A stretch of 63,701 nucleotides of DNA, counting the filler, from Pirum gemmata (Eukaryota), in the NCBI GenBank assembly GCA_002812295.1. It is 29 parts of 29 records of this genome, joined end to end, with 100 filler letters (N's around TTAATTAATTAA, not from the genome) between each part and the next. Parts side by side here need not be neighbours in the genome. Positions count along the whole stretch, not along the records: positions 60,321 to 62,369 come from PDIN01008769.1; 28 more parts are not named here. One strand, 5' to 3'. Shown here one piece after another: positions 61,032 to 62,273 of this stretch. Position 1 is the stretch's first letter. Each line of letters starts with the position of its first letter. The translations under genes were made by a program, and so were the position numbers. Below the pieces are notes generated by a model. The model was not told where the DNA came from. It made no database searches and worked only from the letters and a program-made list of their open reading frames with translations.

Positions 61032-62273
61032 TTAAAACAATCTTGCGATATCTATAGAGTTAATTTTAGTCAAAAATCCCAGCTCTTCTTTAAAGCAAGA
61101 TGTGGATTTTTTGGTATGATAATAAGAACCGGAATATTCGTCCTCAGTGTACATGGTAACAGTGAATCGATCAGGTACTTGCATATATTTAGATTTACTT
61201 GCCGAGCCTTCGGTAAATAGTTTCTCAATATCAGCACGCGTGTAAGATCCAAGCTTTAACTTTACAGATTTTCCAGTTCCTTCACAGTTGTTGTAAAAGG
61301 TGACAAAGTTCTCATCTTTGGGTGGTGTTCTGTCTGGTTCTGGTGCACTACCTTTTTGACAGTCAGACCAAAATTCGTTGATGATTGCACAATGCGAGTT
61401 TGCAGGACAACAGGTTTCACCGGCGAAGTTTTTACCACCACATTGATCCAATAATTCATTACAACAACCTCCGGTGCATTTCTCTTTAGTCTCTTCTTTA
61501 GGTTCTTCTTTAGGTTCTTCTTTAGGTTCTTCTTTAGGTTCTTCTTTAGGTTCTTCTTTAGGGTTAGGGTTAGCATCGCTTTGTTTAAATGTAGCTACTT
61601 TTGGCCCAACAATGTATTGTTGACCAAATTGATTGTTATAAGCTTTTCTGTAAGCGTTAGCATTTTTTGGTAAATGGCTTGCACCATTTATTTCAACCAT
61701 ACCAGTGTCGACATTATAATTACCGTTAGGATTTTTAATAATGACATCTGCACAGTTGGCGTACATCTCTACATTGGTGACTTGTTGTACTGCAAGCCAT
61801 TCCCAACGTAAAATACAATTGTCACAAGCTGGTATGTGTTCGGGCACAGTAAAGGTTTCATCAAAATTTCTAGGATCTTTACCGTCACTAGAACCACACC
61901 CTGGGATATCATGGATTTTAAACCAGGTAGAAGGATTACTTTCACCAGATTTAGATGGATCAGAAATATAAATAGCACAATCTCCTGGATGAGGAGCTTC
62001 ATATTTGACACTGATTTTAAATGGTTGACCAGCGGTCATTGTTTGTATATCAGATGATTTTGTTTCAAAATTGTGACAACGGAAGGAACTAGCTTCAGGT
62101 CCTTGGCTCATTGGAGTTTTTCCTTGTAAAGTATACATAGGAGCCCTTTGATCTGAGGATTCGACATTATTGTTGTTATCTGGTCGAACTGCAGGAAACA
62201 CCATTTGGCCATGACCTTTTACTGATGTACATAATAGTGCTGAAAAAACAGCAATCACAGAAGTAAAATACAT
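61032..62273 (-). CDS. Secreted lytic polysaccharide monooxygenase + (PKEE)n linker + CBM1 + beta/gamma-crystallin-like domain
   Basis: Signal peptide ending VKG|HG (His1); APHPGDC (second His); CDNCILRWEW...EMYANCADV; QCGGKNFAGETCC...C...NEFWSDC (CBM1); VTFYNNCEGTG...VPDRFTVTMYTEDEYSG (crystallin Greek-key motifs). Complete and intronless. Confidence 0.9.
   Translation of the reverse strand: MYFTSVIAVFSALLCTSVKGHGQMVFPAVRPDNNNNVESSDQRAPMYTLQGKTPMSQGPEASSFRCHNFETKSSDIQTMTAGQPFKISVKYEAPHPGDCAIYISDPSKSGESNPSTWFKIHDIPGCGSSDGKDPRNFDETFTVPEHIPACDNCILRWEWLAVQQVTNVEMYANCADVIIKNPNGNYNVDTGMVEINGASHLPKNANAYRKAYNNQFGQQYIVGPKVATFKQSDANPNPKEEPKEEPKEEPKEEPKEEPKEETKEKCTGGCCNELLDQCGGKNFAGETCCPANSHCAIINEFWSDCQKGSAPEPDRTPPKDENFVTFYNNCEGTGKSVKLKLGSYTRADIEKLFTEGSASKSKYMQVPDRFTVTMYTEDEYSGSYYHTKKSTSCFKEELGFLTKINSIDIARLF

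What the first reader, a model, noticed from the sequence alone, without database searches (positions are those of the whole stretch)
61032..62273. LPMO with mixed-family active-site motifs fused to CBM1 and a beta/gamma-crystallin domain
Seen: His1 after the signal peptide, HPGDC, LRWEWLAVQQ, EMYANCAD, a charged (PKEE)x5-6 linker instead of a Ser/Thr linker, CBM1, a crystallin-like domain, and no introns in an intron-rich genome. Established: E-x-Y (axial Tyr) occurs in AA11, CxxCxLxWxW...NCAD in AA15-like enzymes, and WxAxH in AA17 (here His is Gln); CBM1 binds cellulose or chitin and is mainly fungal/oomycete; microbial crystallin domains often bind Ca2+. Inference: a possibly unclassified LPMO subfamily with an architecture I do not recognise, for wall remodelling or attack on host or prey polysaccharide, perhaps horizontally acquired.
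Basis: partly seen in the sequence, partly recalled or inferred. Interest (0 to 1): 0.85.

Follow-up and report, generated by a model that had tools for sequence, protein, structure and literature searches.

The report
Unclassified protist and giant-virus LPMO family
This gene, likely from a walled marine protist related to animals, encodes a predicted secreted copper enzyme that likely cuts cellulose or chitin by oxidation, and it belongs to a family shared with other protists and giant viruses that fits none of the named enzyme families well.

Summary
The 413-aa ORF and all quoted motifs are real. The 'mixed' motifs are one family's signature: 124 proteins, with His1/His75/Glu149/Tyr151 kept in 107-109 of 109 full domains and Gln (56) or His (53) at 143. 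Members occur in dinoflagellates, Paulinella, Syssomonas, Nematostelium and giant-virus contigs. The model (pLDDT 86) has the LPMO fold, nearest AA9 (Z 15.3) and AA11 (13.9), at 15-22% identity. Full members score at least 130 bits on the family profile; the best solved LPMO scores 53. CAZy HMMs could not be run. A paralogue labelled Pirum gemmata shares the LPMO-CBM1-crystallin layout but has an uncharged linker. The crystallin domain lacks the calcium motif. Three studies hold the gene, codon use is native, and no donor is seen, so contamination and recent transfer are unsupported. Verdict: a likely active LPMO of an unclassified AA9/AA11-related family; activity untested. The scan may have noted this family on other DNA (e1-9818971, e1-8093275).

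The parts
61032..62273 (-). ORF, 413 aa (P0001): signal peptide, LPMO domain, linker, CBM1, beta/gamma-crystallin-like domain
   Evidence: exact contigs in runs X1, X2, X3
62214..62273 (-). Predicted signal peptide, aa 1-20
   Evidence: hydrophobic core, Kyte-Doolittle mean up to 2.9; His at the same place in 107 of 109 full domains; cleavage inferred
61575..62213 (-). LPMO-fold catalytic domain, aa 21-233 (mature 1-213), with the C-terminal extension also aligned in AA9, AA11 and AA14
   Evidence: model pLDDT 86; Z 15.3 to AA9 over 1-210; Pfam LPMO_10 30.5 bits
62211..62213 (-). His21 (mature His1), predicted copper ligand
   Evidence: 107 of 109
61989..61991 (-). His95 (mature His75) in HPGDC, predicted second copper ligand
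   Evidence: aligns with AA9 HPG and AA11 HGG histidines; 108 of 109
61785..61787 (-). Gln163 (mature 143), at the place of the AA9 second-sphere His
   Evidence: alignment to 7exk and 4b5q; Gln 56, His 53 of 109
61761..61769 (-). Glu169-Met-Tyr171 (mature Glu149, Tyr151): second-sphere Glu and axial Tyr
   Evidence: aligns with AA11 E-x-Y and AA9 Q-x-Y; Glu 108, Tyr 109 of 109
61491..61562 (-). (PKEE)x6 charged linker, aa 238-261; not conserved
61359..61463 (-). CBM1, aa 271-305; Phe301 and Trp302 kept, Leu275 at the place of the third aromatic
   Evidence: Pfam CBM_1; register to 1cbh; CBM1 numbering recalled
61035..61310 (-). Single beta/gamma-crystallin-like domain, aa 322-413, without the calcium motif, with a Cys pair (330, 393) shared with the paralogue and PDB 3hzb
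60321..62369 (.). The 2049-base assembly piece that carries the gene, between two N-linkers

Best explanation
The gene encodes a predicted secreted copper enzyme with the LPMO fold that likely binds crystalline cellulose (or chitin) through its CBM1 and likely cuts it by oxidation, and it belongs to a family of protists and giant viruses that fits no named LPMO family well. Shown: the domains, the fold of the model, the conserved His-His-Glu-Tyr residues, the family and its range. Inferred: removal of the 20-residue leader frees His1; His1 and His75 bind one copper; after reduction the enzyme uses H2O2, positioned by Glu149 with Gln143 beside it, to oxidise a glycosidic carbon. By analogy with AA11, the Glu-Tyr pair would give a low redox potential and high oxidase activity. 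The most likely job is extracellular digestion of insoluble beta-1,4 glycan by an osmotrophic ichthyosporean. The crystallin domain would be a calcium-independent accessory or second binding module, and the charged linker a neutral spacer.
For: Fold: all of the top 23 VIA-align rows are LPMOs or brace-type relatives, AA9 first; Foldseek agrees. Residues: H1 107, H75 108, E149 108, Y151 109 of 109 domains at a median 36% pairwise identity. Appended modules across the family are glycan-directed: CBM1-like 19, LysM 18, CBM18 4, GH8 2 of 124 (Pfam columns). Distinct family: lowest full member 130 bits against 53 (AA9), 43 (AA11), 24 (AA15), 21 (AA10) for solved LPMOs on the same profile. Tyr with Glu is called unique to AA11 in PMC12186267; His-Gln-Tyr marks AA9 in PMC11137697. 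Native gene: three studies hold it; run X2 behaves as RNA in a control gene and holds two exact stretches; paralogue P0037 has the same layout.
Against: No activity, copper binding or substrate was tested, and brace geometry could not be read from the model. PMC12186267 notes that brace proteins without peroxygenase activity exist. Glu at this position is typical of chitin-only LPMOs (PMC11137697), which weakens the preference for cellulose. This CBM1 lacks one of three aromatics. 13 of 13 relatives scanned pass Pfam's AA9 cut-off (27.9-73.9 bits against 27.8), so curators could file the family as distant AA9. The profile was built from 15 of the members, which favours them. The tree holds no AA9 or AA11 sequences.
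Confidence: 0.6

Rival explanations
1. Same chemistry, but the target is the organism's own thick wall: the enzyme loosens it during growth or release of daughter cells.
For: P. gemmata has a thick wall (PMC11286789). PMC12186267 mentions developmental roles for AA11. Many relatives end in a hydrophobic tail that could anchor them, and giant viruses carry the family, which fits action on host walls.
Against: This protein and its paralogue end in a soluble domain with no anchor. The wall polymer was not stated in the passages read.
Confidence: 0.2
2. It is a copper brace protein that does not cleave polysaccharide, acting as an H2O2-producing oxidase or a copper carrier, as reported for AA16 or X325 proteins.
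For: AA16 and X325 share the fold (Z 10.6 and 10.3). The abstract start of PMC10088020 describes AA16 oxidoreductases boosting AA9 enzymes. Glu with Tyr raises oxidase activity.
Against: The fold is closer to AA9 and AA11 and covers their C-terminal extension. Glu and Tyr are near-invariant. Glycan-binding modules and a GH8 domain are fused in many members.
Confidence: 0.12
3. It is a divergent non-fungal branch of AA9 (or AA11) that CAZy already holds or would absorb, so it works as an ordinary cellulose LPMO and only the domain layout is new.
For: Pfam AA9 above cut-off in 13 of 13 relatives and in L001 and a viral copy. AA9 heads both structure searches. Non-fungal 'AA9' calls exist in oomycetes (PMC7720654).
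Against: P0001 itself gets no AA9 row. His-Gln-Tyr occurs in 1 of 109 domains. Identity to solved AA9 is 14-21%. AA9 leads AA11 by only 1.4 Z units.
Confidence: 0.25
4. The piece is a contaminant, a misjoin at the PKEE repeat, or a recent transfer from a virus or alga.
For: A 2-kb piece with an adapter-like 12-mer at its end; no listed contig bridges the repeat; the family is patchy and virus-borne.
Against: Exact contigs in three studies of organism A. Depth in X1 of 393-412, against 243-458 for most contigs of a spliced control gene (depth is a rough measure). The paralogue has the same domain order without the repeat. GC3 is native. The two paralogues form their own branch (100/99), outside the viral clade.
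Confidence: 0.04

Closest known systems
CAZy AA9 (for example PDB 9fdl, 4b5q, 7exk; Pfam PF03443)
   Same: Best structural match (Z 15.3, rmsd 3.2, 183 aligned, residues 1-210), HPG at the second His, axial Tyr, CBM1 fusion.
   Different: 15-20% identity; Gln-Glu-Tyr or His-Glu-Tyr in place of His-Gln-Tyr; protist and viral, not fungal, among the named members.
CAZy AA11 (PDB 7p3u, 4mai, 9exj)
   Same: Glu with axial Tyr, N-x-E-x-Y-x-x-C, W-x-W strand; Z 13.4-13.9; best single-sequence LPMO match (E 3e-4).
   Different: 22% identity; HPGDC against HGGGSC; family profile reaches only E 3e-10; extra CxxC pair.
CAZy AA15 (PDB 5msz)
   Same: LPMO fold, axial Tyr; reported from Ichthyosporea, algae and viruses, with CBM1 fusions (PMC5823890).
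   Different: Profile E 2e-4; structural match ends at residue 162; six Cys in this domain against ten conserved in AA15; the AA15 rows seen have no AA9 hit, while this family does.
NCBIfam NF043005 (SCE4755 family, bacterial LPMO-like)
   Same: Weak match over the core.
   Different: 24.3 bits against a cut-off of 75; best 27.5 among 16 proteins scanned.
Microbial beta/gamma-crystallins (Protein S 1prr; 3hzb 'carbohydrate binding protein'; clostrillin)
   Same: Profile E 9e-12 to 4e-5; 3hzb matches the whole domain and shares both cysteines.
   Different: Calcium-site strings such as NDDISS and NDKVSS are replaced in both paralogues; fused to an LPMO.

Membership tests
LPMO superfamily | Signal peptide followed by His1 | tested here: met
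   Leader and His21; 107 of 109; cleavage itself inferred
LPMO superfamily | Second His and axial Tyr/Phe with Gln/Glu two residues before | tested here: met
   His75, Glu149, Tyr151 align to AA9 and AA11 residues
LPMO superfamily | Ig-like beta-sandwich of LPMO type | tested here: met
   Model pLDDT 86, Z 10-15 to AA9, AA10, AA11, AA13, AA14, AA15, AA16
LPMO superfamily | Copper binding and oxidative cleavage of a polysaccharide | not testable with these tools
   Needs bench work
AA9 | His-Gln-Tyr second sphere | tested here: not met
   Gln-Glu-Tyr here; His-Gln-Tyr in 1 of 109; motif per PMC11137697
AA9 | Pfam PF03443 above cut-off | tested here: inconclusive
   No row for P0001; 13 of 13 relatives pass at 27.9-73.9 bits
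AA9, AA10, AA11, AA13-AA17 | Significant hit to the CAZy/dbCAN family HMM and nesting in the family tree | not testable with these tools
   No CAZy HMMs or reference sequences on hand
AA11 | Axial Tyr with Glu | tested here: met
   PMC12186267
AA11 | Family-level sequence likeness, including HGGGSC at the second His | tested here: not met
   21-24% identity, HPGDC; 43 bits against at least 130 for members
AA15 | Strong AA15 likeness with no AA9 hit; ten conserved Cys | tested here: not met
   E 2e-4 to 5msz; relatives hit AA9; six Cys in the domain; criteria from PMC5823890
   No entry titled AA17 among the listed matches; the motif was not found stated in a paper
AA10 | Pfam LPMO_10 above cut-off | tested here: met
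   30.5 bits against 23, profile positions 78-183 only
AA10 | Second sphere Arg-Glu-Phe or His-Gln-Tyr/Phe (cellulose-active members); closest fold | tested here: not met
   Gln-Glu-Tyr; Z at most 11.6, ending near residue 162; PMC11137697
NF043005 SCE4755 family | NCBIfam cut-off of 75 bits | tested here: not met
   24.3 bits
CBM1 | Pfam PF00734 above cut-off | tested here: met
   31.6 and 35.6 bits against 20.6
CBM1 | Three aromatic residues on the binding face (recalled) | tested here: not met
   Phe301 and Trp302 present, Leu275 at the third place (register); the paralogue keeps all three
Calcium-binding beta/gamma-crystallins | Crystallin-type sequence | tested here: met
   below Pfam's cut-off; no model of this domain was made
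Calcium-binding beta/gamma-crystallins | N/D-N/D-x-x-S/T-S motif at both sites (motif recalled; seen in the PDB rows) | tested here: not met

The most novel reading that the evidence does not exclude
This is a member of an undescribed LPMO family that joins an AA9-like scaffold to an AA11-like Glu-Tyr site, with a natural His/Gln switch in the second sphere. It spans Holozoa, Amoebozoa, Rhizaria, dinoflagellates and a clade of giant viruses that would use it on host walls, and in this ichthyosporean it carries a calcium-free crystallin domain acting as a new carbohydrate-binding module.
Probability: 0.45. Interest if true: 0.8.

Novelty: new variant of a known kind. Interest (0 to 1): 0.62.

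Why it matters
New LPMO families have each opened a new substrate or biology. This one would extend AA9/AA11-type chemistry to many protists and to giant viruses. It offers natural Gln-Glu-Tyr and His-Glu-Tyr sites for the open question of how the second sphere tunes copper: PMC11137697 made His-Glu-Tyr only by mutation, and PMC12186267 calls Tyr with Glu unique to AA11. It also gives a handle on how ichthyosporeans, close relatives of animals, digest or remodel walls. The genes are intronless or viral and short, so they are easy to express.

Tried and rejected
No whole genome is held, so the paralogue count and true neighbours are unknown. The unfiltered search of 1.84 billion representatives never ran, so the family's edge towards AA9, AA11 and the fungal clusters seen in the ESM Atlas (Zoopagomycota 0.93, Mucoromycota 0.89) is not mapped. 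The second-look structure search also never ran. A first model from 2 sequences was poor (pLDDT 43) and not used. No relative in phage records, in 512 pattern matches of prokaryote genomes (one pattern only, a weak test) or in PADLOC. BFVD gave only distant matches, best E 2.5e-7 at 19% identity. No listed holder is on record as RNA. Five short matches in GC-rich metagenome contigs (L002-L006) were not followed. A CBM2-like look of the tails of L001 and the viral proteins got no Pfam support. P0063 was first taken for the second copy because of its contig length and then rejected: the loose ends translate to peptides of P0037. The 586-base skip in the control gene has no canonical splice ends and lies between 31-base repeats, so it was not counted as an intron. 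The careful 72-row tree did not finish; a 31-row careful tree without the mixture model was used. The paper search with 'crystallin' was swamped by 'crystalline'. No AA17-titled entry was listed in the structure searches; this excludes nothing.

Full report
Observation. The ORF lies at 61032-62273 on the minus strand and encodes 413 aa. An in-frame stop lies two codons before the ATG. Pfam gives CBM_1 (31.6 bits, cut-off 20.6) and LPMO_10 (30.5, cut-off 23, profile positions 78-183). The tail matches Protein S and clostrillin.

Setting. The window is not one stretch of chromosome. It is 29 pieces joined by 28 N-linkers, and the gene is alone on piece 60321-62369, which starts with an adapter-like 12-mer (adapter motif recalled). 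No genome is held. Neighbourhood therefore says nothing.

Is the gene real and native? Three runs from three studies of organism A hold it (3 of 7 listed runs; X1 may be the source). X1 covers 60975-62280 in exact contigs at depth 393-412, broken at the PKEE repeat; X2 holds 61136-61435 and 61572-61978 exactly; X3 holds 61422-61521. On a control piece with a transporter-like gene, X1 depth is mostly 243-458. There X2 and X3 contigs stop matching at 18075, and X2 ends in a T run; 18075 is a TAG acceptor on the minus strand. I infer that X2 and X3 contain spliced RNA, so the LPMO gene is likely transcribed; contigs cannot give a level, and DNA in these runs is not excluded. GC3 is 0.25, within 0.22-0.30 for seven other ORFs. 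All three runs also hold a second, related gene. Its loose ends translate (by hand) to NGEHGPQYLV and HTFKVPDGAP, both in P0037, which EukProt labels Pgem_evm1s10532. P0037 is the nearest relative (55% in the catalytic domain) and has the same LPMO-CBM1-crystallin order with a Pro/Thr/Gln linker. I read the label as Pirum gemmata (recalled prefix), an ichthyosporean. So the two are likely paralogues in that species or a very close one. The shared order argues against a misjoin at the repeat.

The family. A single-sequence search gave 1 hit among 47 candidates. Pattern scans gave 1 full-length metagenome locus plus 5 short matches among 150 and 5 viral loci among 51. Profile searches gave 57 of 2946 and 66 of 952 candidates: 124 distinct proteins with P0001. 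Fifteen were partial and were dropped. In the 109 full domains His1 is kept in 107, His75 in 108, Glu149 in 108 and Tyr151 in 109; position 143 is Gln in 56 and His in 53. Median pairwise identity is 36%. Named members are Effrenium voratum, Paulinella chromatophora, P. micropora, Syssomonas multiformis and Nematostelium gracile; most have no name. Thirty-two proteins of about 470-650 aa share an LPMO-EGF-Cys-rich layout; two are identical to genes on GVMAG contigs, and one such contig carries the giant-virus late transcription factor VLTF3 3 kb from the gene. The others are taken as viral by their clade only. Trees split the family into a mostly Gln-Glu-Tyr group and a mostly His-Glu-Tyr group (100/99 in 31 rows; SH-aLRT 96 for 28 of 72 rows). 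P0001 and P0037 form their own branch (100/99) in the first group, unresolved against the dinoflagellate, viral-plus-Paulinella and unnamed branches. No donor is indicated. These trees have no outgroup and hold no CAZy references. Searches depend on shared words, so 124 is a lower bound.

Fold and active site. A model from 15 sequences has pLDDT 86 and pTM 0.87. VIA-align ranks AA9 (Z 14.1-15.3, rmsd 3.1-3.4, 178-188 aligned), AA11 (13.4-13.9), AA15 and AA14 (12.7), AA10 (up to 11.6), AA16 (10.6), X325 (10.3) and AA13 (10.2), at 12-22% identity. AA9, AA11 and AA14 align through residue 207-215; the others stop near 160. The profile alignments place His75 on the AA9 HPG histidine, Gln143 on the AA9 second-sphere His, and Glu149-x-Tyr151 on AA9 Gln-x-Tyr and AA11 Glu-x-Tyr. 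On the family profile the weakest full member scores 130 bits; the best solved AA9 53, AA11 43, AA15 24, AA10 21. Against this, 13 of 13 relatives pass Pfam's AA9 cut-off at 27.9-73.9 bits, although P0001 does not appear. I could not inspect brace geometry, since coordinates are not returned.

Accessory parts. The CBM1 keeps Phe301 and Trp302 but has Leu at the third aromatic place (register; numbering recalled); P0037 keeps all three. The crystallin domain occurs in 2 of 124 proteins, the two paralogues. Their profile matches Protein S (E 9e-12) and, over the whole domain, 3hzb, titled 'carbohydrate binding protein', with both cysteines shared; the Atlas also points to crystallin and Inhibitor_I36 clusters at 0.90-0.92. 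The strings NNTISS, NDDISS and NDKVSS of those proteins face EGSASK and TKINS here and GGIGIS and QEFQS in P0037, so calcium binding is unlikely. The linker is 57% charged, against 0-13% in 15 other members with a measurable LPMO-CBM1 linker; a similar repeat lies at another locus in X1. Across the family the appended modules are CBM1-like (19), LysM (18), CBM18 (4) and GH8 (2) of 124; the LysM and CBM18 cases with a full domain all have His at 143.

Mechanism. Established for LPMOs: a reduced copper in the brace reacts with H2O2, and a second-sphere Gln or Glu positions it (passages of PMC11137697 and PMC12186267). Inferred here: the same cycle with Glu149 and Gln143, and, as in AA11, a low potential and high oxidase activity. 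CBM1 and the AA9-like scaffold point to crystalline cellulose; Glu points to chitin. I put cellulose first. Ichthyosporeans are osmotrophs (PMC13345962); P. gemmata came from invertebrate digestive tracts by a reference title, has a thick wall, and its relatives are marine (PMC11286789). Feeding is my first reading and wall remodelling the second. PMC13345962 reports many transfers into the Pirum/Abeoforma clade, so an old transfer remains possible; it has no occurrence of LPMO, AA9 or monooxygenase in its main text.

Literature. Ten searches listed no paper on this family; the library lacks most subscription papers, and CAZy itself was not available. Seen: PMC5823890 (passages, section 7, a supplement search, part 1 of 2 of supplement 8); PMC5320794 (part 2 of 4; its LPMO14 is mainly fungal and oomycete); passages of PMC11137697, PMC12186267, PMC7720654, PMC11286789, PMC13345962, PMC8615602 and bioRxiv 10.64898/2026.08.04.742344 (names AA10 only among LPMOs); PMC10088020 as a listing only. 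The ichthyosporean AA15 sequences of PMC5823890 were not found by name in its supplements, so I could not compare them.

Earlier notes. The look-ups by sequence and by place found nothing. By words, two notes on other genomes describe a protist and giant-virus LPMO-fold family and a viral LPMO with CBM1. They give no sequence, so I cannot say that they are this family.

Verdict. A real, likely expressed ichthyosporean gene for an LPMO-type enzyme of a widespread family that no named family fits well. The family is the main point; the charged linker, calcium and recent transfer are not supported. New variant of a known kind, interest 0.62.

Noticed in passing
window 1-63701: The window is 29 unplaced pieces of 1.2-3.1 kb joined by N-TTAATTAATTAA-N linkers, many with TTAGGG arrays and simple repeats at their ends; adjacency in it is artificial.
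   Followed up: yes
window 60321-60332: An adapter-like 12-mer at the start of the gene's piece (motif recalled).
   Followed up: partly
L017:10010-11791 (also L007-L010): Giant-virus contigs encode a 600-aa member: LPMO, EGF-like and Cys-rich repeats, an unplaced domain and a hydrophobic C-terminus; VLTF3 lies 3 kb away.
   Followed up: partly
L014:1004-2260 and 6828-8567: Near the viral LPMO gene lie a chondroitinase B-like beta-helix protein (Pfam E 4.5e-49) and, directly downstream, a 580-aa protein with a hydrophobic leader and no Pfam match.
   Followed up: no
L015:1948-2409; L018:2877-4538: An ATG8-like gene and an IS605/Cas12f-like TnpB gene on the viral contigs.
   Followed up: no
P0042, P0053: Family members fused to a GH8 glycoside hydrolase domain and Cys-rich modules.
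   Followed up: no
P0052, P0115 and one further domain: One member has His-Gln-Tyr like AA9, and one of 109 has lost both brace histidines.
   Followed up: no
window 29364-31142 (+): Long uninterrupted ORF with Cys-rich repeats, leucine-rich repeats, a predicted membrane span and a Tyr-rich acidic tail, like a receptor.
   Followed up: partly
window 4633-6116 (+): Exon-like ORFs with a weak PAS (LOV-type look) match, E 0.003.
   Followed up: no
window 16738-17323: Run X2 skips 586 bases between two 31-base direct repeats downstream of the transporter-like ORF; no canonical splice ends, so a strain deletion or assembly collapse.
   Followed up: partly
window 34696-35274 (+): Small ORF with a hydrophobic leader and no Pfam match, possibly secreted.
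   Followed up: no
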